Shown here piece after piece: positions 184 through 12,607 of a stretch of 12,607 nt of DNA. The DNA comes from an uncultured Rhodopirellula sp. Its GTDB lineage: Bacteria > Planctomycetota > Planctomycetia > Pirellulales > Pirellulaceae. The stretch spans positions 1 to 12,607 of the forward strand of contig CAXGRW010000082.1 in assembly GCA_964012125.1 (NCBI GenBank), read 5' to 3'. A program made the translations under genes and the position numbers. Each line of letters starts with the position of its first letter. Positions within the stretch are counted from its first letter, which is position 1. The notes under the pieces are model-generated. The model was not told where the DNA came from and made no database searches. It saw only the letters and a program-made list of their open reading frames with translations.

Positions 184-340
184 GGCAATCCCTCGCCTGT
201 GATACGGACAGATGGTTGTGATTTTGCTGCTGGTGTAACCTTGTCAGGATTGGCAAAGGTGCCAAATGCTTTTGAAGGTTACCTTTTCCCTCTCCCTTTC
301 TTTTTCGGTCCCAACAGACATTTCAGCTGAGAGAAAATCG

Positions 341-619
341 ATGCTCGAATCAAAATTGATAGACATGTTGCGTTGCCCGATTGACGGTTCTCGTTTGCAT
401 TTGCTCACCGATGATGAGGTTTTACGCATCAATTCGGCACTTGAATCCGGCAATTTGCGAGATCGACTCGATCAACGAATCAGCTGTCCTTTGGATGCCG
501 GGCTGCTGAATCGACAGGCGAATCGGGTTTATCCTGTTCGGGGAGGCATCCCGTCGCTTGTCTCCGATGAGGCGGTTGAGTTGCCTGAGGGATTCTTTGG
601 CGAGGGTTTGGGGGAATAG
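341..619 (+). CDS. Trm112-family small protein (UPF0434/YcaR-like)
   Basis: The ORF track frame is 266..619. The internal ATG at 341 gives MLESKLIDMLRCPIDGSRLHL...NRVYPVRGGIPSLVSDEAVEL. This matches the Trm112p-like signature as I recall it: N-terminal L-x-x-L-x-CP strand and C-terminal YP-[IV]-x-x-GIP-x-[LM]-x-x-[DE]-EA. The 25 codons upstream of 341 (LLKVTFSLSLSFSV) look non-coding. TAG stop at 617..619. Confidence 0.75.
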   Translation: MLESKLIDMLRCPIDGSRLHLLTDDEVLRINSALESGNLRDRLDQRISCPLDAGLLNRQANRVYPVRGGIPSLVSDEAVELPEGFFGEGLGE

Positions 620-654: not shown

Positions 655-909
655 CTACCAATCCGTTTGGTCTGGCCCTTGCTCATCATCGTCGGGTTTT
701 GTGTCCCCACACCAACGAGCCAGTGATTTCAGCACCTCGTTGCGGCCGCTAGTGTTGGTCCACAAGGAGTCGTCCACATCTAATCTGACTTCGTAGTCCC
801 CCTCGTGCATGCACTCGGGTTCACCGCAGAAGTGAGGGACGTCGCTGACCCATACAACTCGATATAGCGGGATATGTTTATCGTCGATCTTGATGAGTGG
901 TGAAGTCAT
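655..909 (-). CDS. Hypothetical small protein (84 aa) with an H-x-C-x4-C-x-H cluster
   Basis: ATG at 909..907 and stop at 657..655. Codon choice by eye prefers C/G-ending codons, as in the neighbouring genes. The product contains HFCGEPECMH and an acidic C-terminus. I recognise no family. It lies downstream of and co-directional with proC, and convergent with the Trm112-like gene. Confidence 0.5.
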   Translation of the reverse strand: MTSPLIKIDDKHIPLYRVVWVSDVPHFCGEPECMHEGDYEVRLDVDDSLWTNTSGRNEVLKSLARWCGDTKPDDDEQGPDQTDW

Positions 910-1095: not shown

Positions 1096-1905
1096 TCAGT
1101 CGTCCTCTCCCATTTCTTGGCTTCGTTCTGCCGAGGCTGCCACTGCTTCAATCAACGCGCCTCGGATTCCATTTTGTTCGAGAACAGAGATCGCCTCAAT
1201 CGTCGTGCCTCCCGGGCTGGCTACTGCATCCTTTAGTTCTGCCGGGTGCCGTTTGGTTTCTGCGATCATGGTAGCCGTGCCAAGCACCGTCTGGGTGGCG
1301 AGCTTGAGTGCTAGTGGACGTGGCAAGCCAGCGAGCACTCCACCATCGGCAAGTGCCTCTATGATGATACAGACATAGGCAGGGCCAGAGCCACTGAGTC
1401 CAGTCACTGCATCCATTTGCGTCTCGGCGACCTCAACTGCCAGACCAACTGATTCAAGCACGGATTGAATCCAGGTTCGATCTTCAGCGGAAACTTCACT
1501 ACCGCAGCAGTAGCCACTTGCGCCTTGGCGAACCAGGCTTGGGGTGTTGGGCATTACTCGGGCAACCTTGGAGTGCCCTAACGCGTGGCTGAGATCATCA
1601 AGGCCGATACCTGCCGCGATCGAGATAACAAGCTTGTCCTGCCATGCAGAGCGGACTTCATCGATCACTTCGAGCAGGATATTGGGTTTGACCGCCAGCA
1701 GGGCAGCGTCGCACTGTGCGACGGCGGAGGCTAGTTCTGCGAAGCTGACTGAGGGGTGGTTATCTGTCCACCATTGGCGTGATGTGGCATCTGGTTCCAC
1801 CAAGATGACCTGAGAGGCCGATATTACCTTGCTCGCCACAATTCCCCCAACCAATGCGCGGCCCATTTGTCCGCCGCCAATTACTGCCAGTTTTTGCACA
1901 CTCAT
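1096..1905 (-). CDS. proC: Pyrroline-5-carboxylate reductase
   Basis: N-terminal Rossmann motif [14 protein letters not shown], plus [14 protein letters not shown] and SPGGTT motifs typical of ProC. I chose the ATG at 1905 ([12 protein letters not shown]), which has AGGAAA 8-13 nt upstream. The track start at 1935 is a TTG that adds 10 basic residues. Confidence 0.93.
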
Positions 1906-1926
1906 ACGGGCTTTCCTTGTTCTATG

Positions 1927-1939
1927 CCGTTTCAAACGG
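1927..1939. promoter_or_regulatory. 13 bp perfect palindrome CCGTTTCAAACGG in the proC/argB divergent intergenic region; candidate operator or 5' UTR hairpin
   Basis: The palindrome is read directly from the sequence. It lies 22 nt upstream of the proC ATG (1905) and about 90 nt upstream of the argB ATG (2028). It does not match the enterobacterial ARG box as I recall it. A regulatory function is purely inferred. Confidence 0.2.
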
Positions 1940-2027: not shown

Positions 2028-2942
2028 ATGAAATCGACAATCGCGAAGCGACTGGTCGGTGATATTGGAGATTTCTGCGTGGATGAAGCAATCGGAAAAG
2101 CAAATACGCTAATCGAGGCAATGGGCTGGATTCGACGCTTTCGCGGTAAAACCACCGTGATCAAGCTGGGTGGAAGCCTATTGGATGACGAATCAGCCCT
2201 GATGCACATCTTACTTGATGTGATTTTCATGGAATCGGTTGGAATGAAGCCGGTGATTGTCCACGGCGGTGGGAAAGCTATCAATCGAGCACTGGCCGAA
2301 GCGGGAATTGAAGCGCATTTCGTGCGTGGCCGCCGCGTGACCGATGAGGCGACCCTGGAGGTTGTGCAGAGAGTTCTCGCCAAAGAACTCAACGTCTTCC
2401 TAACCGAAGAGATTGAGAGGCTGGGCGGAAGAGGGATGAATCTCTCGTTTGAAACCACCAATGTTCTGTTTGGGCAAAAGCTGAAAACAGATCCTCAAGA
2501 GGATCTTGGCTTTGTGGGCGAGGTCACTCGGGTTGATCGTAGTGTTATTGAGGGACTGTCCTACACTGATCAAGTTCCTGTCATCCCTTCGATGTGCGAA
2601 GGAACGAACGGTGAGCGTTACAATGTCAACGCAGATACCGCTGCCATGGCTGTTGCTCAGAGCCTTGGAGCCGAAAAGCTAGTGTTCCTGTCGGATGTAA
2701 ATGGCGTTCGAAGAGATAAAGAAAATCCGGACACCATCATCCATTCTTTGTCGGCAGACGATGCTCGCCAACTCATTGACGAGGGAGTGATTGATGCCGG
2801 CATGATTCCCAAGGTTGAAGCTTGTATTGAAACCCTTGGGCGTGGTGTTCGGAAAATTCACATCGTTGATGGTCGCCTGAGGCACTCGCTTCTGCTCGAA
2901 ATATTCACGACCAGTGGTGTGGGTACTGAAATCCACAATTGA
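2028..2942 (+). CDS. argB: Acetylglutamate kinase (N-acetyl-L-glutamate 5-phosphotransferase)
   Basis: Amino-acid kinase family motifs are present: [19 protein letters not shown] and YNVNADTAA. The product is about 304 aa from the ATG at 2028 (MKSTIAKRL...). The track frame opens at 1854, but those upstream residues overlap the proC 5' end and look non-coding. TGA stop at 2940..2942. Confidence 0.93.
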
Positions 2943-3031
2943 TCCGTGCGACATCCCGCTTTCTCGTCCGGTCAATGATCTTCGCTGATCACCGGTTTTC
3001 GTTTCCTGTTTCCAATGTTGAACGGATTGTC

Positions 3032-5119
3032 ATGAGTGACATGGATGAACCCGAAGAGGCAATCGATTCCACGTCGGAGGATGTATCTGACAGGGGTGCC
3101 GACAGTTCAGTGAAGGAAACTGCAGCAAGTCAGGGTGAATCGGTCCAAAACGATTCGCAAAAATCTGGTGAGTTCGCTGAAGAAGCACCAGTCGAAAGTG
3201 ATGATGTTATGGAAAAAAAAGTCATCCAAGAAAGTAACGACGACGAGTACGAAGATGACGACTCAGAAGATGACGACTCAGAAGATGACGACTCAGATTA
3301 CGACGACTCAGATTACGACGAGTACGAGGATGAATCAGAGGAGGATGAATCAGAGGAAGATGATTCACAGGGGGACGAGCACGAGGACGATTCAGAAGAT
3401 GATGAGCGCGACGATGAGTCAGAAGACGATGAATTAGAAGACGAAGACGAATCAGAGGAGTACGAAGACGATTCAGAAGACGACGAGTACGAGGATGAAT
3501 CAGAGGAAGGTGATTCACAGGGGGACGAGCACGAGGACGAGTCAGAAGATGATGAGCGCGACGATGAGTCAGAAGACGATGAATTAGAAGACGATGAATT
3601 AGAAGACGATGAATTAGAAGACGATGAATTAGAAGACGAAGACGAATCAGAGGAGTACGAAGACGATTCAGAGGAGGATGATTCCGAAGATGAGTCCGAT
3701 GACGAAGAAGTAGAGGGGCTAGGAGACGGCGACGTAGATTTGGCCGCATCGACTGATGTTGGTGGTGATGGAAAAATCGCTGACGATGTTTTGGCACATG
3801 AGTCTCAGCATCCTGCCATGCACGAAAGTGGGGCTGAACCAATTCAGCAAAGTGTAGTGAGTGACCGAGTTGCAAGCTCAGGTGTTAACGGTGAGGACGA
3901 AGCACGTGCACTGACTGCCGGTTCCGCTAAACATGCAGAACTGCAGTTTCAGGCTGTTGACCTGCCCATCATGCACGGTGAACCTTTCGGGATGCGTCGC
4001 GCTGATAGAAATGGGTGCGAACTTCTAGATGCAATGGCAGGACGCAACTCCGTGTTTGGCTTTGGTTGTACGCCAATTCGTGAATCTCTTGTGTCTGGTC
4101 TCTCAGATTATTTGGGTGAAGGTAGCCGCTTTGCGGATGTCGAGGATGCTGGCGAGTCAGTACTGTCAAAAAAATTGCAGCAAGTGTTTGATGGTGCAAG
4201 TTCCGTGTCCGTTGAGTCGATGGCACTATTGCCTTCACCAGATTTGGCGGTCGAGTATGCATTGCAGCTGACGAGACGATTTCGTTCTGAAAAAGCGTTT
4301 CGTACAATCGCTCTGACAGGCAGTGACCATGGTCGCACTGGTATGTGTCGAACTGCCAGTGGACAGCCGCAGTTGCACGACGGGCTTGGCCCCATGATGG
4401 CAGGGTTCAGTCATCTGCCTGTGGGAGACTTGGATGCTTTGCGAGCTTCCATGGACGAGCAAACAGCAGGAGTACTACTGTCGCCGATCGATTTGGGTAG
4501 TGGAGCAGTCGCTTGCGAGGCCGAGTATCTTGCCGGAGTGCGTGCTGCCTGTAATGAGCGTGGCGCCCTTTTGGTCATTGATGAAACACAACTTGTATTT
4601 GGGGCAACTGGCAACCACTTTTCCTTTTCTTCAATTGCTGATATCCACGCTGATATCGTGGTAACCTCAAGTGGACTCTTTGCCGGTTTGTCTGGTGGAT
4701 TGGTTCTTGCGTCTCAGCATGCTTCAACGCGGGTTGTGCGCGATCTAGAGCAGTATCCTCTTGTTGCCGCGGCATTGATGGCCACCTTGGACGAAATGGA
4801 ACTGCATGGTTTGCCGGATAATGTGCATGGCTCGGCACAGGAATTGGCTGTTTTGATTGCAGAACGGTTGAGTGGCTTTGAGTTTGTGCGGGACATGAGA
4901 GTGAGCGGGATGACGATTGGCATTGAATGTGACGTCAATGCGATTGATGTCGTGGCCGCTGCGGCCGCCAATGGCCTGCGAGTTGAGACTGCGGGAGACA
5001 CGGCGATACGTATTCAACCTCCGTTGCTGATTAGTGAGGAAGACCGGCAGCTTTTGTTGAAACGACTGGTTGAAACAATGGAAGCAATTGAGCGGGAAAC
5101 TGCCGAGCTGACGTTGTAG
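3032..5119 (+). CDS. Polyacidic-repeat protein with a C-terminal class-III aminotransferase-like (ArgD-like) domain lacking the PLP-binding lysine
   Basis: The frame is uninterrupted from 2939 to 5119. The first ATG is at 3032 (MSDMDEPEE...). A TTG at 2939 overlaps the argB stop as TTGA. An internal in-frame ATG at 3971 would encode the aminotransferase-like part alone. From about 3935 the product aligns by eye along its length with acetylornithine/class-III aminotransferases (motifs recalled from memory): GRNSVFGFGCTP vs GG.AV..LGH.HP, DHGRT vs FHGRT, SPIDLGSG vs EPIQGEGG, LVIDETQLVFGATG vs L.FDEVQTG.GRTG. The [GSA]-K Schiff-base position reads T-S-S (Ser codon at 4670..4672). The gene sits between argB and argF. 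The start coordinate is uncertain. Confidence 0.8.
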   Translation: MSDMDEPEEAIDSTSEDVSDRGADSSVKETAASQGESVQNDSQKSGEFAEEAPVESDDVMEKKVIQESNDDEYEDDDSEDDDSEDDDSDYDDSDYDEYEDESEEDESEEDDSQGDEHEDDSEDDERDDESEDDELEDEDESEEYEDDSEDDEYEDESEEGDSQGDEHEDESEDDERDDESEDDELEDDELEDDELEDDELEDEDESEEYEDDSEEDDSEDESDDEEVEGLGDGDVDLAASTDVGGDGKIADDVLAHESQHPAMHESGAEPIQQSVVSDRVASSGVNGEDEARALTAGSAKHAELQFQAVDLPIMHGEPFGMRRADRNGCELLDAMAGRNSVFGFGCTPIRESLVSGLSDYLGEGSRFADVEDAGESVLSKKLQQVFDGASSVSVESMALLPSPDLAVEYALQLTRRFRSEKAFRTIALTGSDHGRTGMCRTASGQPQLHDGLGPMMAGFSHLPVGDLDALRASMDEQTAGVLLSPIDLGSGAVACEAEYLAGVRAACNERGALLVIDETQLVFGATGNHFSFSSIADIHADIVVTSSGLFAGLSGGLVLASQHASTRVVRDLEQYPLVAAALMATLDEMELHGLPDNVHGSAQELAVLIAERLSGFEFVRDMRVSGMTIGIECDVNAIDVVAAAAANGLRVETAGDTAIRIQPPLLISEEDRQLLLKRLVETMEAIERETAELTL
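3251..3310 (+). repeat. In-frame 15-nt tandem repeat: GAAGATGACGACTCA x3 perfect, plus one copy with 3 mismatches (encodes EDDDS x3, then DYDDS)
   Basis: Counted directly: units at 3251-3265, 3266-3280 and 3281-3295 are identical. Unit 3296-3310 is GATTACGACGACTCA. Confidence 0.9.
3317..3676 (+). repeat. Tandem duplication of a ~150-nt core unit (copy A 3317..3481, copy B 3482..~3676) inside the acidic coding tract
   Basis: By hand alignment the two copies differ by only two substitutions in the shared core (aagatgatt vs aaggtgatt; gacgattcag vs gacgagtcag). They also differ by whole 15-nt units: copy A has TGAATCAGAGGAGGA/TGAATCAGAGGAAGA doubled, and copy B has GATGAATTAGAAGAC four times against once in copy A. 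Confidence 0.9.
3578..3637 (+). repeat. Four perfect in-frame copies of the 15-nt unit GATGAATTAGAAGAC (encodes DELED x4)
   Basis: Counted directly: units at 3578-3592, 3593-3607, 3608-3622 and 3623-3637 are all identical. The paralogous position in copy A of the larger repeat carries a single unit. Confidence 0.95.
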
Positions 5120-5155: not shown

Positions 5156-6103
5156 ATGCAACATTTATTGAGTTTGTTTGATCTTTCAGTAGGGGATTTG
5201 CGTTCCCTGCTTGCCACGGCAAATGTTTTGAAAACGAGGTTGGCTGCTGGCGATCGACCGCCAGTGCTGGAACGTCGTGTGCTCGCCCTCCTATTTGAAA
5301 AGCCCAGTTTGCGGACGCGTGTCAGTTTCGAAACTGGCATCGCACAATTGGGTGGTTCAAGCCTGTTTCTCGGTGATGATGTGGGCTGGGGCAAGCGTGA
5401 GTCGGCTTCAGATTTTACGCAGGTCCTTGGTCAATTCGTTGATGCCGTGGTTTGCCGTGCGAAATCGCATACCAAAGTCGAGCAGTTGGCAAGTTACAAT
5501 TCGCTTCCAGTCATTAACGGTTTGACCGACTTGTGCCACCCATGCCAAGCTTTGGCTGACGTCATGACCGTTCATAACGCCTTTGGAACGGTCGCTGACA
5601 AACATCTGGTTTTTGTCGGTGATGGAAATAATGTGGCACAATCCCTCGCCTTGGTCTGTGCGATGTTGGATATGCGTTTCACACTTTCGTGCCCTGCTGA
5701 GTACGAGATGGATAAGGCATGGATGGAAAAAGTTTTTGAACAATATCCAACCGCCAAAATCAGCACGGTATCGGATGCCAAAACTGCGGTAGCGGATGCT
5801 GATGCCATTTACACAGATGTTTGGACCAGCATGGGGCAGGAAGCTGAAATGGCAGAACGCCGAAAAGCGTTTTCCGATTTTCAGGTCAATAGCAAGTTGA
5901 TGTCGGCCGCGCCACAGCATGCTCGTGTACTGCATTGTCTGCCCGCAGTCCGCGGCGAAGAAATTACGGATGATGTGATTGATAGCGACCAAAGTGATGT
6001 GATCGTGCAAGCCGGTAATCGAATGCACGCCCAGAAAGGGTTGCTGGTCTGGCTGCTCAATCGTCCATGGATTGAGCAAAACGTTACTGATGCTGCTTTT
6101 TAG
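5156..6103 (+). CDS. argF: Ornithine carbamoyltransferase
   Basis: Transcarbamylase carbamoyl-phosphate motifs SLRTR (S-x-R-T-R) and HPCQ are present. The ornithine-specific motifs DVWTSMG (D-x-x-x-SMG) and HCLPA (HCLP) are also present. This argues for a true OTCase rather than an acetyl- or succinyl-ornithine transcarbamylase. ATG at 5156, 36 nt after the preceding stop. TAG stop at 6101..6103. Confidence 0.93.
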
Positions 6104-6132: not shown

Positions 6133-6831
6133 ATGCGCCCACATGACCAACTTCGCGATGTCGAAATACAACGTGGTTATCTTGATTCTAATCCTGCCAG
6201 CGTTCTTTATCGCTGTGGACGCACAATCGTTCTTTGCACCGCTTCGATCGAAGCATCGGTGCCACCATGGCTCGAAGGGAAAGGTAAAGGCTGGGTTACT
6301 GCTGAGTACAACATGCTGCCTGGCAGCACCAGCCCTCGCAAGCGGCGTGATCGCGGTGGGAAAATCGATGGAAGGACCACGGAAATTCAACGTTTGATCG
6401 GACGCAGTTTGCGTGCCATCGTTGATCTGCAAAAGCTGGGTGAGCAAATGATCACCGTCGACTGTGATGTTCTGCAAGCTGACGGAGGGACTCGTACGGC
6501 ATCAATCACCGGAGGCTTCATCGCACTTGCACAAGCAGTTTCCCTGTTAATGCCTGACTCAAGTATTGGTGATGGTCCGCTGACCGATTCAGTAGCGGCT
6601 GTCAGTTGCGGTCTGATCGGTGATGACGTTGTGCTGGATCTTGATTATCAACTCGATTCGGCGGCTGACGTCGACATGAATGTCATCATGACTGGTGGCG
6701 GTCGGTTTGTTGAAATTCAGGGCACCGGCGAAGAGGCAACTTTCGATGACCAGCAGCTAGCTGAGTTGCTGAGATTGGCAAAACAGGGTATCAGTACATT
6801 GACCGAAAAACAGATGCAGGCCCTGCAGTAG
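6133..6831 (+). CDS. rph: Ribonuclease PH
   Basis: The product is 232 aa with GWVTAEYNMLPGST, GRTTEIQRLIGRSLRA and DCDVLQADGGTRTASITGG, characteristic of RNase PH. GGAG at 6117..6120 lies 12 nt upstream of the ATG at 6133. The gene starts 29 nt after argF. Confidence 0.93.
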   Translation: MRPHDQLRDVEIQRGYLDSNPASVLYRCGRTIVLCTASIEASVPPWLEGKGKGWVTAEYNMLPGSTSPRKRRDRGGKIDGRTTEIQRLIGRSLRAIVDLQKLGEQMITVDCDVLQADGGTRTASITGGFIALAQAVSLLMPDSSIGDGPLTDSVAAVSCGLIGDDVVLDLDYQLDSAADVDMNVIMTGGGRFVEIQGTGEEATFDDQQLAELLRLAKQGISTLTEKQMQALQ

Positions 6832-6996: not shown

Positions 6997-8139
6997 TTAC
7001 TGACGAGGGTTCTCGTACCAGACAACGTTGTTGCTGGCCCGCCCTGCGATTAGCAGATCAAGGTCACCATCGGCATCAAGGTCGACGGTTCGGATGTCGT
7101 AGGCTTCCTGATTTTCGGCGACGATATGGGGTATGAAATTACCTTTGCCGTCATTTTCATACCACATGACGACTTGGTCTCCGTAGCCGCACGTGGCCGC
7201 ATCAATATCGCCATCCGAGTCCATGTCGACGGCTGCGAGGCAATGGGGTTCCTTCAGGTTGGCGTCGATGTCGTGGCACTTCCATTGAGGAGCTTCAAAC
7301 CAGATCACGCCCTTGCCATGGCCACGTGATGCGATGAAGTCTTGCCTGCCGTCACCATTCACATCGGCGGGATGAATGTTGGTTGCTCCCGGTTCACGGT
7401 CACTGATCAGATGTTTTTTCCACGCTTGTTGTGGCTGTTCTGGTGCTTCCCACCAAGCAAACCATTCACCCGTCGATGTAGCCGTTGGACCACCTTTGGC
7501 TCCCGTGGTAGCGTCGAGTCGTCCATCCTGGTTGACGTCGCCAACTCCGATGTAGTGAGTCAGCCCAGGGGCATCCTGTTTCGCGAGAACGTTGGGGTGC
7601 CATTGGGTGGCTTTTTTTGCTTCAGGGGGTGTCGAAAACCAAACGAGTGACTCGGGGTAGGGCGCTGTGGGTTGAGCGCTGGTCGCGAGCAGATCGGGCT
7701 TTCCATCCTTGTCGATATCGCCTTTCATCAGTCCATGGATCCCGTGGACTGTATTGGCAATCAACCTTTTTTTCCAACGTTGCGATGCTCCTTGTTCAGG
7801 TTGTTCCAGCCATGTGATCAGTCCCGGATTGTATCTCGCACCGATGTAGTCAAGATCACCATCACCATCAATATCGAAGCATTCGCTGTGAATGTAGCCC
7901 CGATCTTCACTGTGGTCGTCGAGGACAATCTGTTGCCAATCAGGCGCGACAAATAACAGCGTACTACCGCCAACTTCTGCAATGACGTCCGGTAATCCGT
8001 CTCCGCTAAAGTCGCCTGAGATTGCTGTTAAGCTACGTTTTCCCTCCTGTAGGACGTGCTTCTTCCAATGCTCCTCTGCGGAAGAGACTGTAACCAGGCT
8101 GGTTAGAATGGAAACGGCAGTAAATACTCGGACTTTCAT
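6997..8139 (-). CDS. Secreted FG-GAP/VCBS-repeat (integrin-alpha-like beta-propeller) protein
   Basis: N-terminal signal peptide MKVRVFTAVSILTSLVTVSSAEE. About seven spaced Ca-binding-type D-x-[DN]-x-DG motifs follow: DFSGDGLPD, DIDGDGDLD, DIDKDGKPD, DVNQDGRLD, DVNGDGRQD, DMDSDGDID and DLDADGDLD. Each is followed by hydrophobic strands and W-rich segments, typical of FG-GAP/VCBS propellers. Confidence 0.85.
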   Translation of the reverse strand: MKVRVFTAVSILTSLVTVSSAEEHWKKHVLQEGKRSLTAISGDFSGDGLPDVIAEVGGSTLLFVAPDWQQIVLDDHSEDRGYIHSECFDIDGDGDLDYIGARYNPGLITWLEQPEQGASQRWKKRLIANTVHGIHGLMKGDIDKDGKPDLLATSAQPTAPYPESLVWFSTPPEAKKATQWHPNVLAKQDAPGLTHYIGVGDVNQDGRLDATTGAKGGPTATSTGEWFAWWEAPEQPQQAWKKHLISDREPGATNIHPADVNGDGRQDFIASRGHGKGVIWFEAPQWKCHDIDANLKEPHCLAAVDMDSDGDIDAATCGYGDQVVMWYENDGKGNFIPHIVAENQEAYDIRTVDLDADGDLDLLIAGRASNNVVWYENPRQ

Positions 8140-8258
8140 CGCAGGACCTTGGAGTGTGGATCAAACTCGCTCATGATGTGCGTTAACATTAATGCGTGTG
8201 TTTGCAGAATGCCACTGCTGACCGATTTTGTTCTACCGGTGATCCGAGTTGAGTGCTG

Positions 8259-8882
8259 ATGGCAAAATTGTATTTTTATTATTCATCGATGAACGCGGGG
8301 AAATCCACGATTCTGTTGCAGTCCAGCTACAACTATCGCGAGCGTGGAATGCAAACTTTGATCCTGTCTCCTGAATTGGATGATCGGTTTCAAGTTGGAA
8401 AAGTGACATCTCGTATCGGTATCGAAGCCGACGCGTTAACCTTCACGATCAGTGACAATCTGCTGACGATGGCGCTGCGCTTCAATGAACAAGAGAAGAT
8501 CGCGTGCATTTTGGTCGATGAAGCTCAGTTTCTTACAGAGTCGCAGGTGCGACAACTCAGTGACCTGTGTGATGATCACAATATTCCGGTGCTCGCGTAT
8601 GGGCTGCGTACGGATTTTCGCGGTGAGCTATTTGAGGGAAGTCAACATTTGTTGGCATGGGCCGACAGTTTGGTTGAAGTCAAAACGATTTGTCACTGCG
8701 GAAGCAAGGCGACGATGGTGCTGAGAATCGATGCTGATGGGCGTGCGATTAAAGATGGACGGCAGGTGCAAATCGGCGGTAACGAACGCTACCTGTCGGT
8801 TTGTCGCCGCCATTTCAAAGCAGGTGTACCCAGTGCCGATTCAGAGCCACAAGGCAGCAGTTCCGAAGATCTGCTCTTTTGA
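8259..8882 (+). CDS. tdk: Thymidine kinase
   Basis: [31 protein letters not shown] is nearly collinear with enterobacterial Tdk as I recall it. P-loop [22 protein letters not shown] and the zinc-ribbon cysteines CHCG...CRRH are present. I chose the ATG at 8259; the track start at 8253 is a GTG two codons upstream. Confidence 0.93.
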
Positions 8883-8992: not shown

Positions 8993-10144
8993 TCAGGATT
9001 CAGATTCCAGCAGTCCGATGACCGCCCATGCGGTTCCCCAGTAATTTGATGTGGGTGTTGGCTTGTTGCGGGTTGTTTTTTTGGTGCCCGGTACCTTCCA
9101 CGATCCATCTGATGATTGGCTGGTTGTCAGAAAAGAAATCGCTTTGGAAATCGCGATCTTATTTTTGTTGGCATCGTGGCGACTCAATGCATAAATAGCC
9201 ATGCCGGTCGCCAGCGCATCGCTAGGCTCCGCTGTCAGCCAGCCCCAGCCCCCGTCAGGCTGCTGTTTTTCGATCAGGGTATCACAAAGAGTACTCGAAT
9301 TCATCTCCTGCCGTTTCTCTGCCAGCAGCAAGTGTACTACCCACCATTCGGTTGACGCTGGGTTTGTATTTTGAATGGCTGCGAGTGCCAAAAGCTCCCG
9401 GTCGGCTGTTGTCTGATAGCTGTCGAGAGCTAGCAGAGTCCACGCAGTAGTGACCTGCGTTGTTTCCTCAAGCGAGCGTTTCTGAGCAGGAAGTTGTCCG
9501 CATGGTTTCCATCCACCCTGCCCTTGTTGATTTTTGACAAGAGCCTCGACAAACATTTTTCGCCAAGCTGTGGAGCCGTGTTTTTCAACAATCGCAATTT
9601 GAGTGGAGGCTCTGTCGTTAGCATGTTGGACAGAAGCTTTGCCAGCGGCAACTCGAGGGCTGTCAGGTATGCCAAGCAATAATGCGTTGAGTGTGTCAAT
9701 GTTCGCCGCCAGCGTTGGAGCGACTTTCATGTCAGGCTTCTGGGCCGGTTTGACGAAGTTTTGGACCTCTGTCGACCATGCTGCCCACTTTTTCAGGCGG
9801 GGTCGATTGATCGGATAGCCCCGCGTTTCAGCTGCAGACAAGCTCCACAACATGAACGGAACTTGGTGGCAAGAGACACATTGCCGTTTCTCGATCCAAG
9901 CCTCTCCGGCACGCTCAAGATAGGGGATAGCTCGCTTCACCGTTTCTTTAACGGTATGGGCTCCCTCAGACGCTGCCTTGGATGCGGACTCAGAGTTTTC
10001 GGTCCCACTAATTTTGGGTCCAGAGTCTGTGTGCTCGAGGCCGTCAGGACCATACTCGGCTGCCGCGATGAATTGACTCGTTGCAATCAACGAAACCAAT
10101 AGCATCGCGGTCAGACTTACCAAGGCAGCAGGACGTTTTCGCAT
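8993..10144 (-). CDS. Secreted protein with one CXXCH motif and QW-type (prenyltransferase/squalene-cyclase-like) repeats
   Basis: Signal peptide MRKRPAALVSLTAMLLVSLIATSQFIAAAE. A single c-type heme-attachment-like motif CVSCH lies at nt 9866..9880. Three Q-x-x-x-G-x-W motifs (NQQGQGGW, KQQPDGGW, SQSSDGSW) resemble the QW repeats of alpha/alpha-toroid terpenoid cyclase/prenyltransferase folds. The start lies 9 nt downstream of the preceding redoxin gene. Confidence 0.8.
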   Translation of the reverse strand: MRKRPAALVSLTAMLLVSLIATSQFIAAAEYGPDGLEHTDSGPKISGTENSESASKAASEGAHTVKETVKRAIPYLERAGEAWIEKRQCVSCHQVPFMLWSLSAAETRGYPINRPRLKKWAAWSTEVQNFVKPAQKPDMKVAPTLAANIDTLNALLLGIPDSPRVAAGKASVQHANDRASTQIAIVEKHGSTAWRKMFVEALVKNQQGQGGWKPCGQLPAQKRSLEETTQVTTAWTLLALDSYQTTADRELLALAAIQNTNPASTEWWVVHLLLAEKRQEMNSSTLCDTLIEKQQPDGGWGWLTAEPSDALATGMAIYALSRHDANKNKIAISKAISFLTTSQSSDGSWKVPGTKKTTRNKPTPTSNYWGTAWAVIGLLESES

Positions 10145-10153
10145 AACAGCGAA

Positions 10154-11332
10154 TTACTCAACAGCAGTTTCGGCTTGGCCCTGTGGTTCGCCAAGCAGTT
10201 CCTTGAGCAGTCGATTCAGCTCTTGGCCGCGGGCACTCAGTGAAACCACTTTTCCTTCTTTGTCGACCAGAATCGCAGTTGGAATACCGGAGACTCCGTA
10301 GTACTGCACAAGTGGGTTATTCCATCCCTGCTCGCCTTCTTTCATGCTGAACAGGTTTGGCCAATCGAGGTCTTCCTGTGCAACGTATTTATCACAGGCA
10401 TCCAAGGTGTTGTCGAGATTGATACCAACAATCGCGAAGCCCTGTTCACCGTAAAGTGCAAGTTGCTCTTTCATGTTGGGAACTTCTCTTCGGCAAGGGC
10501 CGCACCAGCTGGCCCAGAAGTCAACCAGCACAGTCTTGCCACGGTAGGAAGCCCAGTCAAACTCTTCGCCTGTTGTGGTGGTTCCTGTGATCACCATCTC
10601 ATTGCCCATCAGACGCATGCGACGTGCAGCTCCGCGGGTGTTTTCGGCTCGTGATTTGATCGCTTCGTCTTTGGACGCAAGCATCATGTCAGCAAGCTGG
10701 TCGTAGAAAGAGGCGGCCAACTCAGCATTGGAGGACAATGAACGTGCCAAGGTATTTCCAAGTGAGAAGCTTTCGCGATCGATGCCATTGTCACCGACCA
10801 TTTTTTTGAACTCGCCGATAACCTCTTTCTGTTCGGCTTCTGTGCCTCTTCCGGCGTTCGCAATTTTGCTTTTGAACGCTTCCATCTTGCCAAGGCGGGC
10901 CAATGTCGGGTTGGAGCTTGTTTCCAGCTCTTTCATCAAGTTGGACATTTTGACTTTCATGGCAGGATTCATCCGACTCAGGAACGTCAGTGCAGCAATC
11001 TCTTCGCGGACAGCCGCGACCTGCATTGGCTCAGGTACGTCTTTGAGCTTTCGGATGGCTTCGGCACCAGCGACAGCAGCAGTGGCTGCTTTGGTGACCG
11101 TTTCCATGGTTCGGCCCCGATTTTGTTTCGCATTAGCGATGAATTTCATCAGCTCTTCCGCGGTGGCACCCTCAGGAACCGTAAATGGATCAGCTCCCTG
11201 CTCCGCTTCCGCGGGGGCTTGGGCAGCTGCGGGAGCTTGTGCCATTGCTTGAGGTGTGAGTAGGAGAAGACCGATCAATGCAATGAAATTGACGCGAATC
11301 AAGTTGCGGCGCCGTTTGGGCTGGAGTGCCAT
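10154..11332 (-). CDS. Secreted TlpA/ResA-like thiol:disulfide oxidoreductase (thioredoxin fold) with a ~250-aa helical N-terminal domain of unknown function
   Basis: Signal peptide ...LIGLLLLTPQAMAQA. The C-terminal part reads GKTVLVDFWASWCGPCRREVPNMKE...FAIVGINLD...GIPTAILVDKEGKV. This is the classical TlpA/redoxin arrangement, with the WCGPC active site at nt 10493..10507. Confidence 0.88.
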   Translation of the reverse strand: MALQPKRRRNLIRVNFIALIGLLLLTPQAMAQAPAAAQAPAEAEQGADPFTVPEGATAEELMKFIANAKQNRGRTMETVTKAATAAVAGAEAIRKLKDVPEPMQVAAVREEIAALTFLSRMNPAMKVKMSNLMKELETSSNPTLARLGKMEAFKSKIANAGRGTEAEQKEVIGEFKKMVGDNGIDRESFSLGNTLARSLSSNAELAASFYDQLADMMLASKDEAIKSRAENTRGAARRMRLMGNEMVITGTTTTGEEFDWASYRGKTVLVDFWASWCGPCRREVPNMKEQLALYGEQGFAIVGINLDNTLDACDKYVAQEDLDWPNLFSMKEGEQGWNNPLVQYYGVSGIPTAILVDKEGKVVSLSARGQELNRLLKELLGEPQGQAETAVE

Positions 11333-11944: not shown

Positions 11945-12607
11945 TCAGCACTTTTTGCCGGGCTCAGGTTTTTTGCCAGAAGCCTCGTTACCAGACGCCT
12001 CGTTACCAGACGCATAGATCGCTGGGTTCAGTGTCGGATCGTTGTACATCTTGAGTTGTCGATAGACCTTGTGCTGCTTCGCACCTGAGAAGAGGTCGTT
12101 GAGCAGTTGCTGCAGTGACAAAGAAAGGTCACGTTGCTGCTGTTCGCACAAATTGATTCGCTGGAGAACTTTTTGGCGATGTTTTGAATCCAAGTCCGGG
12201 CGTTCTTGTTGTTCTCGGTAGTGGTACAGGCGAAGGGCCATGATCGACAATCGGTCGATCACACTTCCGGCAGTCTCGGTATTGATGGGCGCGTCTTCAG
12301 CCCTTTCAATGTCCGCCTCGTTGATGAGTTTTGAAATCTCATCATCGATCTTTTCAATCAGATCGTTTCGGCTCTGATTTAGTTTGTCGATTTCGCGTTT
12401 GACGCGGGCTATGTCTCCAGCTGTGGCATCAGGGCTTCGGCAGATGTCCTCTTGATGCCACAGTCGGTAGTTGCACTCATGTTGCTCGCAAATCAGCTCG
12501 CTGATTCCATGATATGGATTTTCAATGGGTTGCTGATGCCAAGCTGCAACGCACTCCGTTTGGAGCTGCGTCAGTTCTTGCGCCGAGGGGAATGAGTGGG
12601 AGGTCAC
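11945..12607 (-). CDS. Conserved hypothetical protein, probably DUF4254 family; the 5' end lies at or beyond the right window edge
   Basis: The minus-strand frame is open from the window edge (GTG at 12607..12605) to the TGA at 11947..11945. The product contains WH...ENPYHG...EQHECNYRLWHQEDICR...KREIDKLNQSRNDLIEKID. From memory this resembles the DUF4254 signature (H-x-x-N-x-x-LWH-x-ED, then NQ-x-RN). The family assignment needs an HMM check. The C-terminus carries ASGNE ASGNE ASG. Confidence 0.7.
   Translation of the reverse strand: MTSHSFPSAQELTQLQTECVAAWHQQPIENPYHGISELICEQHECNYRLWHQEDICRSPDATAGDIARVKREIDKLNQSRNDLIEKIDDEISKLINEADIERAEDAPINTETAGSVIDRLSIMALRLYHYREQQERPDLDSKHRQKVLQRINLCEQQQRDLSLSLQQLLNDLFSGAKQHKVYRQLKMYNDPTLNPAIYASGNEASGNEASGKKPEPGKKC
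11982..12011 (-). repeat. In-frame 15-nt tandem repeat (GCCTCGTTACCAGAC x2, plus a partial flanking copy) encoding ASGNE repeats at the C-terminus of the DUF4254-like protein
   Basis: Counted directly: 11982-11996 and 11997-12011 are identical. Flanking GCCAGAA and GC give partial extra copies. Confidence 0.85.

What the first reader, a model, noticed from the sequence alone, without database searches (positions are those of the whole stretch)
4232..4690. The ArgD-like domain lacks the Schiff-base lysine and several PLP-contact residues, suggesting a pseudoenzyme
Seen in sequence: between ...RFRSEK (K) and ...RQLLLK (K) there is a stretch of about 255 residues with no lysine at all. This stretch spans the whole region where class-III aminotransferases carry the catalytic Lys. 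Using the family pattern recalled from memory ([DH]-[LIVM]-x-x-x-[GSA]-K), the segment D-I-V-V-T-S-S (4652..4672) places Ser (AGT at 4670..4672) at the Lys position. Other conserved positions are also changed. The phosphate-binding N-S-G-x-E-A reads P-S-P-D-L-A (from 4232). F/Y-H-G-R-T reads D-H-G-R-T. E-P-I-Q-G-E-G-G reads S-P-I-D-L-G-S-G. D-E-V-Q-x-G-x-G-R-T-G reads D-E-T-Q-L-V-F-G-A-T-G (from 4580), which retains the Asp and Gln but loses the Arg. Established knowledge: the internal aldimine lysine is essential for fold-type I aminotransferase chemistry. Inference: the protein probably cannot perform acetylornithine transamination and has been repurposed, while keeping its place in the arginine operon.
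Basis: partly seen in the sequence, partly recalled or inferred. Interest (0 to 1): 0.7.

Follow-up and report, generated by a model that had tools for sequence, protein, structure and literature searches.

The report
Catalytically dead ArgD with acidic tail
The gene in the acetylornithine-aminotransferase slot of this planctomycete's arginine operon keeps the enzyme fold but has lost the catalytic lysine and most cofactor contacts, is still kept by selection across a whole bacterial clade, and has gained a long poly-acidic tail, so it very probably now does something other than transamination.

Summary
The gene at 3032..5119 lies between argB and argF. It encodes a class-III aminotransferase fold (Pfam E 2e-37; AF2 pLDDT 85; TM 0.78 to Salmonella ArgD). 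Ser (4670..4672) occupies the Schiff-base Lys column. The phosphate loop, the ring-stacking Phe/Tyr, both Glu of EPIQGEGG, the Arg of GRTG and the partner-subunit Thr are also replaced.

This is not a local accident. All 147 relatives in a monophyletic Pirellulales clade lack the Lys (A/S/G). The clade includes Rubripirellula, Novipirellula, Stieleria, Roseiconus, Crateriforma, Rhodopirellula europaea and Allorhodopirellula. Every examined locus has the gene in the same argB-X-argF slot. Related lineages (Rosistilla, Thermogutta) hold a canonical, Lys-bearing ArgD in that slot, so this gene is its positional orthologue.

dN/dS is 0.09-0.15, which is purifying selection, though the protein evolves 3-5 times faster than argB, argF or rph.

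Poly-Asp/Glu tails are specific to the dead clade. They are N-terminal here (296 aa, net charge -143) and C-terminal in Rhodopirellula.

The "pseudoenzyme" reading is supported. The retained function, and the enzyme that now makes acetylornithine, are unknown. No description was found in the searchable literature.

The parts
1096..1935 (-). proC (pyrroline-5-carboxylate reductase), divergently oriented neighbour conserved with the cluster
   Evidence: Pfam P5CR_dimer 8e-42 and F420_oxidored. Present at the same place in most related loci.
2031..2942 (+). argB (N-acetylglutamate kinase). The start at ATG 2031 (MKSTIAKRL) is inferred from relatives.
   Evidence: Pfam AA_kinase 2.9e-46. 76-99% identical across Pirellulales, dN/dS 0.02-0.03.
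3032..5119 (+). Whole gene for the Lys-less ArgD-like protein (695 aa from ATG 3032). It lies 89 nt after the argB stop and 36 nt before the argF start.
   Evidence: ORF list. Start shared with relatives. Gaps computed.
3032..3919 (+). N-terminal poly-acidic, low-complexity tail: 296 aa, 52% Asp+Glu, net charge -143. The core at 3209..3766 is 67% Asp+Glu.
   Evidence: Composition. Tail length varies from 0 to about 330 aa among relatives. Poly-acidic tracts are almost confined to this gene among 724 ORFs of the loci.
3239..3676 (+). Imperfect DNA tandem repeats (periods 15, 21, 27, 30, 42) that encode the acidic tract
   Evidence: Tandem Repeats Finder. Protein length differs (612-731 aa) among relatives at least 86% identical.
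4001..5074 (+). Aminotransferase class-III (fold-type I) domain
   Evidence: PF00202 E 2e-37, residues 355-712 of the TTG ORF. AF2 pLDDT 84.8, pTM 0.86. Foldseek best hits are ArgD structures 4jf0 and 2pb2, TM 0.78.
4232..4249 (+). P-S-P-D-L-A in place of the N-S-G-[AST]-E-A phosphate-binding loop (Gly to Pro, Ala/Ser/Thr to Asp)
   Evidence: G114A is inactive in a real AcOAT (PMC13412850).
4325..4339 (+). D-H-G-R-T in place of F/Y-H-G-R-T. The ring-stacking aromatic is replaced by Asp, which is 86% conserved in the dead clade.
4481..4504 (+). S-P-I-D-L-G-S-G in place of E-P-I-Q-G-E-G-G
4580..4612 (+). D-E-T-Q-L-V-F-G-A-T-G. The Asp (pyridine-N partner) and the Gln are kept; the Arg of G-R-T-G is lost.
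   Evidence: The Asp is 99% conserved in the dead clade.
4670..4672 (+). Ser codon (AGT) at the Schiff-base lysine position
   Evidence: phmmer alignment to 2ord and 4jez. Column is A/S/G/T/P in 147 relatives and K in 212 canonical enzymes.
4745..4762 (+). L-E-Q-Y-P-L in place of H-G-[ST]-T-[FY]-G-G-N-P-L. The partner-subunit phosphate-binding Thr is lost and three residues are deleted.
   Evidence: T296A is inactive in a real AcOAT.
4898..4900 (+). Arg aligned with the conserved C-terminal carboxylate-binding Arg. It is kept in this sub-lineage but is His in most of the dead clade.
   Evidence: canonical R 95%; dead-clade consensus H 54%.
5156..6103 (+). argF (ornithine carbamoyltransferase, with S-M-G and H-C-L-P motifs)
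   Evidence: Pfam OTCace_N and OTCace. 63-97% identical across loci, dN/dS 0.02-0.05.
6133..6831 (+). rph (RNase PH), conserved downstream neighbour
   Evidence: Pfam. Synteny.

Best explanation
The gene is the positional orthologue of argD in a large Pirellulales clade, and it has become a pseudoenzyme.

Shown:
- It keeps the class-III aminotransferase fold.
- It has lost the Schiff-base Lys, both phosphate-binding elements, the ring-stacking aromatic, both Glu of EPIQGEGG and the Arg of GRTG.
- The loss is shared by the whole clade.
- The gene stays intact in the argB-X-argF slot under purifying selection.
- Related lineages carry a canonical ArgD in that same slot.

Inferred:
- It cannot bind PLP covalently and very probably cannot transaminate N-acetylglutamate semialdehyde.
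- The reaction is therefore supplied by another aminotransferase encoded elsewhere. argB and argF remain strongly constrained, and a species of a genus that carries the dead form grows on glucose plus ammonium.
- The protein is kept for a non-catalytic role tied to arginine synthesis.

Most likely role: a partner or scaffold for neighbouring pathway enzymes, or a ligand-binding subunit that uses the remodelled pocket. That pocket has new conserved Asp residues at the phosphate and ring-stacking sites, plus the retained His, Arg and Asp. The repeatedly acquired poly-acidic disordered tails point to a new electrostatic interaction with basic proteins, polyamines or basic amino acids, or cations.

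My probabilities: no aminotransferase activity about 0.85; a selected non-catalytic function about 0.8; that this function is regulation or scaffolding within arginine biosynthesis about 0.4.
For: - Lys column and other motifs.
- All curated ArgD models are failed.
- Fold is retained.
- Mutagenesis benchmark: G114A, K268A and T296A each inactivate a real AcOAT (PMC13412850).
- Clade-wide loss: 147 sequences. The named members are Rubripirellula, Novipirellula, Stieleria, Roseiconus, Crateriforma, Rhodopirellula europaea and Allorhodopirellula.
- The argB-X-argF slot is conserved in the 45 of 49 genome-scan Pirellulaceae loci long enough to show both neighbours and in 4 further contigs with more divergent members.
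- Canonical ArgD occupies the same slot in Rosistilla ulvae, Thermogutta and an unnamed Pirellulales contig whose ArgB is 76% identical to the window's.
- NJ tree: the Lys-less clade is monophyletic in 100/100 bootstraps and sister to canonical planctomycete ArgD in 88/100. Canonical branches are short and dead branches long.
- dN/dS is 0.09-0.15, against 0.02-0.05 for argB, argF and rph.
- Basal members (P0170, P0171, P0173) still have S-G-S-E-A and/or Y-H-G but no Lys. This suggests Lys loss came early and the cofactor site decayed afterwards.
- Acidic tails are N-terminal in the Rubripirellula group and C-terminal in the Rhodopirellula group, and absent from canonical planctomycete ArgDs. 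Sixteen of the 17 poly-acidic ORFs among 724 are this gene.
- R. baltica grows on glucose plus NH4Cl mineral medium (PMC2754498).
Against: - No biochemical data exist. Loss of activity is inferred from sequence alone.
- I could not inspect whole genomes, so the presence of a substitute aminotransferase is an inference.
- The prototrophy argument uses R. baltica, while the Lys-less protein was confirmed in R. europaea, not in R. baltica itself.
- No ArgB or ArgF feature co-varies convincingly with the dead versus canonical state, so no partner is identified.
- The protein evolves 3-5 times faster than its neighbours, so constraint is relaxed.
- Most clade members have little or no tail, so the tail cannot be essential to the core function.
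- The NJ topology may be affected by long-branch attraction.
Confidence: 0.6

Rival explanations
1. Prozyme-type partner. The dead subunit forms a heterodimer with a catalytically competent class-III aminotransferase encoded elsewhere and activates, stabilises or regulates it. This is how dead paralogues of AdoMetDC and deoxyhypusine synthase work in trypanosomatids. It is a specific form of the best explanation.
For: Class-III aminotransferases are obligate dimers whose active sites use residues of both subunits, for example the partner-subunit Thr. The fold and many core and interface-proximal residues are retained. Selection is purifying.
Against: No candidate partner was found. The dead gene is the positional orthologue rather than an extra paralogue. 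The dead subunit has lost the Thr it would donate to a partner's phosphate site, so a heterodimer would have at best one crippled site.
Confidence: 0.12
2. It is still an enzyme, with altered chemistry. It might use non-covalently bound PMP/PLP, as the Lys-less fold-type I sugar dehydratases ColD and E1 do, or it might use no cofactor at all.
For: The Asp that pairs with the pyridine N is 99% conserved, and the His-Gly of the FHG motif is 95-98% conserved. Basal members keep S-G-S-E-A and Tyr. The gene remains inside a biosynthetic operon.
Against: The Lys position holds Ala, Ser or Gly, none of which is a catalytic group; ColD-type enzymes have His there. Both phosphate-binding elements are lost, and Asp now sits at the phosphate-loop and ring-stacking positions. 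The protein evolves fast, unlike the slow canonical clade. Single mutations at three of the changed positions kill a real AcOAT.
Confidence: 0.1
3. It is a decaying relic with no protein-level function, kept only as an open frame for operon expression or translational coupling between argB and argF.
For: Amino-acid evolution is accelerated relative to the neighbours. Start and stop codons overlap with argB and argF in R. europaea.
Against: dN/dS of 0.09-0.15 is far below neutrality. The frame is intact in 49 genomes and in members down to about 30% identity. Clade-specific conserved residues exist: D136, R144, G259, R324, D338. The AF2 model is confident. A new feature, the acidic tail, was gained more than once.
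Confidence: 0.05
4. The Lys-less form is an ancient paralogue or a horizontally acquired gene that displaced canonical argD at the locus, rather than an orthologue that degenerated in place.
For: In the NJ tree the dead clade is sister to all canonical planctomycete ArgDs, including Rosistilla (Pirellulaceae) and Thermogutta. It is not nested among them as the species tree would predict.
Against: That topology is the expected long-branch artefact of rate acceleration. The slot, orientation and flanking genes are identical. No genome with both forms was seen, though sampling was weak.
Confidence: 0.1

Closest known systems
Acetylornithine aminotransferase ArgD (EC 2.6.1.11; PF00202 class-III, fold-type I; structures 2ord, 2pb0/4jez, 1vef, 7nn1)
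   Same: It has the same fold (TM 0.78) and gives the best sequence and structure hits of any family. It occupies the same operon slot between argB and argF. It retains the Asp-Glu-x-Gln motif, the His-Gly-Arg-Thr core and, in this sub-lineage, the C-terminal Arg.
   Different: It has no Schiff-base Lys, no phosphate loop Gly, no stacking aromatic, no partner-subunit Thr, no EPIQGEGG glutamates and no GRTG Arg. It scores about 150 bits against curated cut-offs of 372-616. It evolves 3-5 times faster and carries poly-acidic tails.
Pseudoenzymes that partner with or regulate active homologues (Arabidopsis PDX1.2 in vitamin B6 synthesis; trypanosomatid AdoMetDC and deoxyhypusine synthase prozymes)
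   Same: It is a catalytically dead homologue of a metabolic enzyme, kept by selection within the same pathway context.
   Different: Those are extra paralogues with a known active partner. This gene replaces the orthologue in its own operon slot, and no partner is known.
Lys-less PMP-dependent fold-type I enzymes (ColD, CDP-6-deoxy-hexulose-3-dehydrase E1)
   Same: Both are fold-type I proteins that naturally lack the Schiff-base lysine.
   Different: Those enzymes have His at the Lys position and an intact cofactor phosphate and ring site. This protein has Ala, Ser or Gly there and a dismantled cofactor site. They also belong to a different subfamily (DegT/DnrJ/EryC1).
MocR/GabR transcription factors (aminotransferase-fold effector domain)
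   Same: An aminotransferase fold is used for something other than metabolic catalysis.
   Different: MocR proteins keep the Lys and PLP, carry an N-terminal wHTH domain, and belong to class I. Here no DNA-binding domain was detected and the PLP site is lost.
LysW/ArgW amino-group carrier proteins of the Thermus/Sulfolobus lysine-arginine pathway
   Same: A strongly acidic polypeptide is associated with ArgB/ArgC/ArgD-type enzymes, and electrostatics drive the enzyme contacts.
   Different: LysW is a small zinc-ribbon protein with a C-terminal EDWGE acceptor and needs an ATP-grasp ligase. Here the acidic part is a repetitive disordered tail at either terminus, it is absent in many members, and no ligase lies nearby. 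This is a resemblance only.

Membership tests
ArgD / acetylornithine aminotransferase (TIGR00707, NF002325 and related) | Class-III aminotransferase fold (PF00202) | tested here: met
   Pfam E 2e-37. AF2 pLDDT 84.8. Foldseek TM 0.78 to 4jf0 and 2pb2.
ArgD / acetylornithine aminotransferase | Schiff-base lysine in the D-x-x-x-x-[SA]-K motif | tested here: not met
   Ser at 4670..4672. The column is A/S/G/T/P in 147 relatives and K in 212 canonical enzymes. No invariant Lys anywhere in the family alignment.
ArgD / acetylornithine aminotransferase | PLP phosphate binding: the S-G-[AST] loop and the Thr of the partner subunit | tested here: not met
   The loop is S-P-D and the Thr segment is L-E-Q-Y-P with a three-residue deletion. 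G114A and T296A are inactive in CsAcOAT.
ArgD / acetylornithine aminotransferase | Aromatic residue stacking on the PLP ring (F/Y-H-G) | tested here: not met
   Asp here, 86% conserved in the dead clade against Phe in 88% of canonical enzymes.
ArgD / acetylornithine aminotransferase | Asp pairing with the pyridine N, and Gln to O3' (D-E-x-Q) | tested here: met
   D-E-T-Q at 4580..4591. The Asp is 99% conserved in the clade; the Gln is kept here but variable across the clade.
ArgD / acetylornithine aminotransferase | Score above the curated family cut-off | tested here: not met
   Best scores are 147-157 bits against cut-offs of 372 (NF002325), 410 (TIGR00707) and 457 (NF002874).
ArgD / acetylornithine aminotransferase | Location in an arginine biosynthesis gene cluster | tested here: met
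   argB-X-argF in the window, in the 45 of 49 genome-scan loci long enough to show both neighbours, and in 4 further contigs.
ArgD / acetylornithine aminotransferase | Acetylornithine:2-oxoglutarate aminotransferase activity | not testable with these tools
   Needs purified protein or complementation.
Pseudoenzyme (dead homologue retained by selection) | Clear homology to an enzyme family with loss of residues essential for its chemistry | tested here: met
Pseudoenzyme (dead homologue retained by selection) | Maintained by purifying selection; not a pseudogene | tested here: met
   dN/dS 0.09-0.15 in seven pairwise comparisons with unsaturated dS. The frame is intact in 49 genomes. Clade-specific conserved residues exist.
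Pseudoenzyme (dead homologue retained by selection) | Experimentally inactive | not testable with these tools
PMP-dependent Lys-less fold-type I enzymes (ColD/E1 type) | His (a catalytic base) at the Lys position with an intact cofactor site | tested here: not met
   The position holds Ala, Ser or Gly, and the phosphate and ring contacts are lost.
MocR/GabR-type regulators | N-terminal GntR-type wHTH domain fused to the aminotransferase fold | tested here: not met
   Only PF00202 is detected. The N-terminus is a 52% Asp+Glu low-complexity tract.
Prozyme-type heterodimer partner | A co-encoded active paralogue with which it dimerises | not tested
   Whole genomes could not be inspected. No contig-length match was found between Lys-less and canonical hits, and this was a weak test.

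The most novel reading that the evidence does not exclude
In a major clade of Pirellulales, including the model genus Rhodopirellula, the operon-encoded 'ArgD' is a non-catalytic protein. Its remodelled, newly acidic pocket and its recurrent poly-acidic tails let it bind a basic ligand (arginine, ornithine or a polyamine) or basic pathway proteins. In this way it would regulate or scaffold ArgB, ArgF or the wider arginine machinery. The acetylornithine aminotransferase step would then be carried out by an unrecognised, non-orthologous aminotransferase.
Probability: 0.3. Interest if true: 0.8.

Novelty: new variant of a known kind. Interest (0 to 1): 0.68.

Why it matters
- **Annotation.** Databases label these proteins 'acetylornithine aminotransferase' or 'PLP-dependent enzyme'. 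Metabolic reconstructions of Rhodopirellula, Rubripirellula, Stieleria, Novipirellula and relatives therefore count a step as present when the annotated gene very probably cannot perform it. The real enzyme is unidentified.
- **Evolution.** This is a rare, clean case of a core biosynthetic enzyme's orthologue turning into a pseudoenzyme in place. It has living canonical relatives in the same slot and basal intermediates that have lost the Lys but still keep part of the cofactor site. That allows stepwise reconstruction of how an enzyme dies and is re-used.
- **Mechanism.** Poly-acidic tails were gained independently at either terminus and only in the dead clade. This is a concrete, testable lead to a new interaction linked to arginine metabolism.

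Tried and rejected
1. The word-indexed homologue searches suggested a sharp gap between a compact Lys-less family and canonical enzymes. The exhaustive HMMER search showed that picture was an artefact: the Lys-less clade is much broader and grades down to about 190 bits. I dropped the 'compact family' view.
2. I looked for a canonical ArgD in the same genomes by matching the longest-contig lengths of Lys-less hits (for example 9,719,866; 3,914,721; 7,182,433) to canonical hits. There was no match, but only the best 120 of thousands were listed. This neither shows nor excludes a second copy.
3. Cluster look-ups for the nearest canonical hits from the first search gave almost no organism names.
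4. tblastn with canonical aminotransferases against all fetched loci found only the gene itself.
5. I looked for ArgB or ArgF insertions, deletions or basic patches that track the dead versus canonical state. The only difference was a 4-9 residue ArgB C-terminal tail in three canonical lineages, which is too few to use.
6. The first motif read-out from hmmalign had a column-mapping bug, corrected.
7. Six literature searches for a Lys-less ArgD or a planctomycete argD pseudoenzyme found nothing relevant. A further search for 'Rhodopirellula' with 'acetylornithine' returned only unrelated papers.
8. I considered and rejected: a sequencing error or pseudogene (the loss is shared by 147 sequences under purifying selection); a MocR-like regulator (no HTH domain); and a LysW-like carrier (different architecture, no ligase).


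Full report
**What is in the window.** The finding lies inside one long gene. The mechanical ORF runs 2939..5119 from a TTG. Relatives begin at MSDMDEPEE, so the real start is most likely ATG 3032, giving 695 aa. The gene sits 89 nt after argB (AA_kinase, E 2.9e-46) and 36 nt before argF (OTCace_N and OTCace). proC lies divergently upstream and rph downstream. Only one Pfam family matches the protein: Aminotran_3 (PF00202, E 2e-37), covering the C-terminal 360 residues. The first 296 residues are a poly-acidic low-complexity tract with 52% Asp+Glu and net charge -143. Its core is 67% Asp+Glu, and it is encoded by imperfect tandem DNA repeats at 3239..3676.

**Checking the observation.** Lys occurs at ORF residues 452 and 708 with none between. 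That stretch alone is only modest evidence because the domain is Lys-poor overall. The aligned column is what counts.
- phmmer against all solved structures gives ArgD as the best hits (2e54 and 2ord at 4e-31; Salmonella 4jez at 2e-29). It aligns DIVVTSSGL with DVLTTAKGL and DILTSAKAL, which places Ser (AGT 4670..4672) on the Schiff-base Lys.
- From the tagged-chain numbering in that alignment I mapped the Salmonella residues. K255 is Ser here. E193 and E198 are Ser and Gly. D226 and Q229 are retained. R144 is retained. The partner-subunit T284 falls in L-E-Q-Y-P, next to a three-residue deletion.
- All NCBIfam ArgD models are missed by a wide margin, about 150 bits against cut-offs of 372-616.
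- Published mutagenesis of a bona fide AcOAT shows that G114A, K268A and T296A each abolish activity, with F148 stacking on the ring and R151 forming a salt bridge (PMC13412850). Here the three indispensable positions are Pro, Ser and Glu/Gln, and the stacking Phe is Asp.

**The fold is intact.** An AF2 model built on a 24-sequence family alignment has mean pLDDT 84.8 and pTM 0.86. Foldseek's best PDB matches are Salmonella, Thermotoga, Campylobacter and M. tuberculosis ArgD, with TM about 0.78.

**The loss is a clade property.**
- The first homologue search found about 98 relatives down to 39% identity, all without the Lys. The named ones are Rubripirellula, Stieleria varia and 'Rhodopirellula' maiorica.
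- A scan of one genome per GTDB species found 49 Pirellulaceae loci, from Rubripirellula, Novipirellula, Stieleria, Roseiconus and MAGs.
- An exhaustive HMMER search of 1.84 billion representatives showed the Lys-less group is much wider. It grades down to about 190 bits through several divergent subgroups, none with Lys.
- Named members of these subgroups include Crateriforma conspicua, Rhodopirellula europaea and Allorhodopirellula solitaria.
- In a pooled alignment, 147 sequences have A (94), S (31), G (20), T (1) or P (1) at the Lys column, and 212 have K.
- About 19 positions that are at least 85% conserved in canonical enzymes are lost in the dead clade.
- Conversely, a set of positions is conserved only in the dead clade: D136, R144, S147, L152, G157, A161, G259, A314, F322, D325 and Q366.

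**Position and origin.**
- In every locus long enough to show it, the order is (orf84, proC on the minus strand) then argB, X, argF, (rph).
- The same holds for divergent Lys-less members on other contigs (L054, L055, L058, L062). In R. europaea the start and stop codons overlap those of argB and argF.
- The closest canonical enzyme to the family profile, P0191, has FHGRT, EPIQGEGG, GRTG and AKSL. It sits in the same proC | argB-argD-argF arrangement on a contig whose ArgB is 76% identical to the window's.
- Its relatives are canonical ArgDs of Rosistilla ulvae and R. carotiformis, Candidatus Laterigemmans, strain SH139 and Thermogutta. The Rosistilla and Thermogutta genes also lie between argB and argF.
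- The window's gene is therefore the positional orthologue of a canonical argD.
- In a neighbour-joining tree with 100 bootstraps, the Lys-less sequences are monophyletic (100/100) and sister to the canonical planctomycete ArgDs (88/100). Canonical branches are short and dead branches long.
- The sister position, rather than nesting within Pirellulaceae, is what long-branch attraction would produce. Displacement by a paralogue is not excluded.
- Basal Lys-less members (P0170, P0171, P0173) still carry S-G-S-E-A and/or Y-H-G. This suggests the Lys went early and the cofactor site decayed afterwards.

**Selection.** Where dS is unsaturated in pairwise Nei-Gojobori estimates against close relatives, dN/dS is 0.09-0.15 for this gene. 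The values for argB, argF and rph are 0.02-0.05. Across deeper comparisons its protein identity falls to 36-50% while ArgB stays at 80-88% and ArgF at 68-78%. The gene is under purifying selection but with relaxed constraint. That is the usual signature of a pseudoenzyme and not of a pseudogene.

**A new feature: poly-acidic tails.**
- In the Rubripirellula subgroup the protein carries an N-terminal tail of up to about 330 residues with 40-60% Asp+Glu. Its length differs even between proteins more than 86% identical.
- In the Rhodopirellula/Allorhodopirellula subgroup the tail is C-terminal: 125 aa with 52% Asp+Glu in P0190, and 157 aa with 56% in P0182.
- Canonical planctomycete ArgDs are 388-436 aa and have no tails.
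- Among 724 ORFs of at least 200 aa in all fetched Planctomycetota loci, 17 contain an 80-residue window with at least 45% Asp+Glu. Sixteen of those are this gene.
- The tail is thus specific to the dead clade and was acquired at least twice. Many members lack it, so it cannot be the core function.

**How it most likely works.**
- Shown: the fold is retained; the catalytic and cofactor residues are lost; the loss is clade-wide; the slot is orthologous; selection is purifying; acidic tails are specific to the clade.
- Inferred from established PLP enzymology: without the Lys, the phosphate loop, the partner Thr and the stacking residue, and with Asp now at two of those sites, the protein should neither hold PLP nor perform the 1,3-prototropic shift.
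- Inferred from context: the pathway is still in use, because argB and argF are tightly constrained. Rhodopirellula baltica grows on glucose plus NH4Cl mineral medium (PMC2754498), and the Lys-less form was confirmed in its congener R. europaea. I did not confirm it in R. baltica itself. Another aminotransferase must therefore supply the step.
- Speculative: the retained function is non-catalytic. It could be a scaffold or regulator of neighbouring arginine enzymes, or a ligand-binding subunit using the remodelled acidic pocket. The tails would add an electrostatic interaction with basic partners or ligands.
- Rivals are listed separately: a prozyme-like heterodimer, altered chemistry, a functionless relic, and paralogue displacement.

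**What I could not do.** Matching contig-length fingerprints between Lys-less and canonical hits gave no co-occurrence, but that was a weak test. No ArgB or ArgF feature tracks the dead versus canonical state. Seven literature searches found no description of this protein family. The searchable library omits most subscription journals.

**Verdict.** It concerns a whole Pirellulales clade, the orthologous operon slot, surviving canonical relatives and intermediates, and a clade-specific poly-acidic appendage. I rate it a new variant of a known kind (a pseudoenzyme derived from a PLP enzyme), with interest 0.68.

Noticed in passing
window 3239..3676 (within 3032..3919): The acidic tail is encoded by imperfect tandem repeats (periods 15-42 nt). 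Its length differs between near-identical relatives (612-731 aa at 86% identity or more). This suggests rapid repeat expansion and contraction, and probably assembly-dependent length errors in metagenomes.
   Followed up: partly
P0190 (L062 8001..9491), P0182, P0194: In the Rhodopirellula/Allorhodopirellula subgroup the poly-acidic tail is at the C-terminus instead of the N-terminus (125-157 aa, 52-56% Asp+Glu). The same kind of appendage was therefore acquired independently.
   Followed up: partly
window 2939..3031: The mechanical ORF starts at a TTG that overlaps the argB stop. Some database entries start at MIFADHRF or MITGFSF upstream of the conserved MSDMDEPEE. Gene callers disagree on the start; ATG 3032 is the shared one.
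   Followed up: partly
L051 (CAXQOB010000221.1): A contig labelled as a Nitrosopumilus MAG carries a Pirellulaceae-type Lys-less argD fragment, argF (75% identical to the window's), rph (81%) and the DUF4254 gene. This is almost certainly bin contamination.
   Followed up: no
window 655..909 (-): An 84-aa ORF with no Pfam match (MTSPLIKIDDKHIPLYRVVWVSD...) is conserved next to proC in most Pirellulaceae loci and in the canonical-ArgD contig L056, at 51-95% identity. It is a conserved small protein of unknown function.
   Followed up: partly
window 11945..12607 (-), running off the window end: A DUF4254 protein (E 2.9e-50) whose C-terminus contains the short repeat ASGNE-ASGNE-ASG. It is conserved in several related loci at varying distance from the arg cluster.
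   Followed up: no
window 2031..2942 versus L056, L060, L061: ArgB of the three lineages with canonical ArgD ends with an extra 4-9 residue C-terminal tail that all ten examined dead-ArgD lineages lack. The sample is too small to interpret.
   Followed up: partly
L055 5505..8530: In this low-coverage long-read contig, argB, the Lys-less gene and argF are split or fused by frameshifts; one gene was called with both AA_kinase and Aminotran_3. This is an assembly artefact, not a real fusion.
   Followed up: no
window 266..619 (+); 6997..8139 (-); 8253..8882 (+); 8993..10144 (-); 10154..11332 (-): The other genes of the window are a Trm112-like small protein, a secreted FG-GAP/VCBS repeat protein, thymidine kinase, a prenyltransferase/terpene-cyclase-like alpha-toroid protein and a TlpA-like thioredoxin-fold protein. 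Their order is largely conserved within Rubripirellula.
   Followed up: partly
AF2 model residues 138-149 (window about 4331..4366): The segment just after D-H-G-R-T (G-R-T-G-M-C-R-T-A-S-G-Q) is the only internal region with pLDDT below 50. It nonetheless contains clade-specific conserved residues (R144, S147, G148). It may be a mobile lid over the former active site.
   Followed up: no
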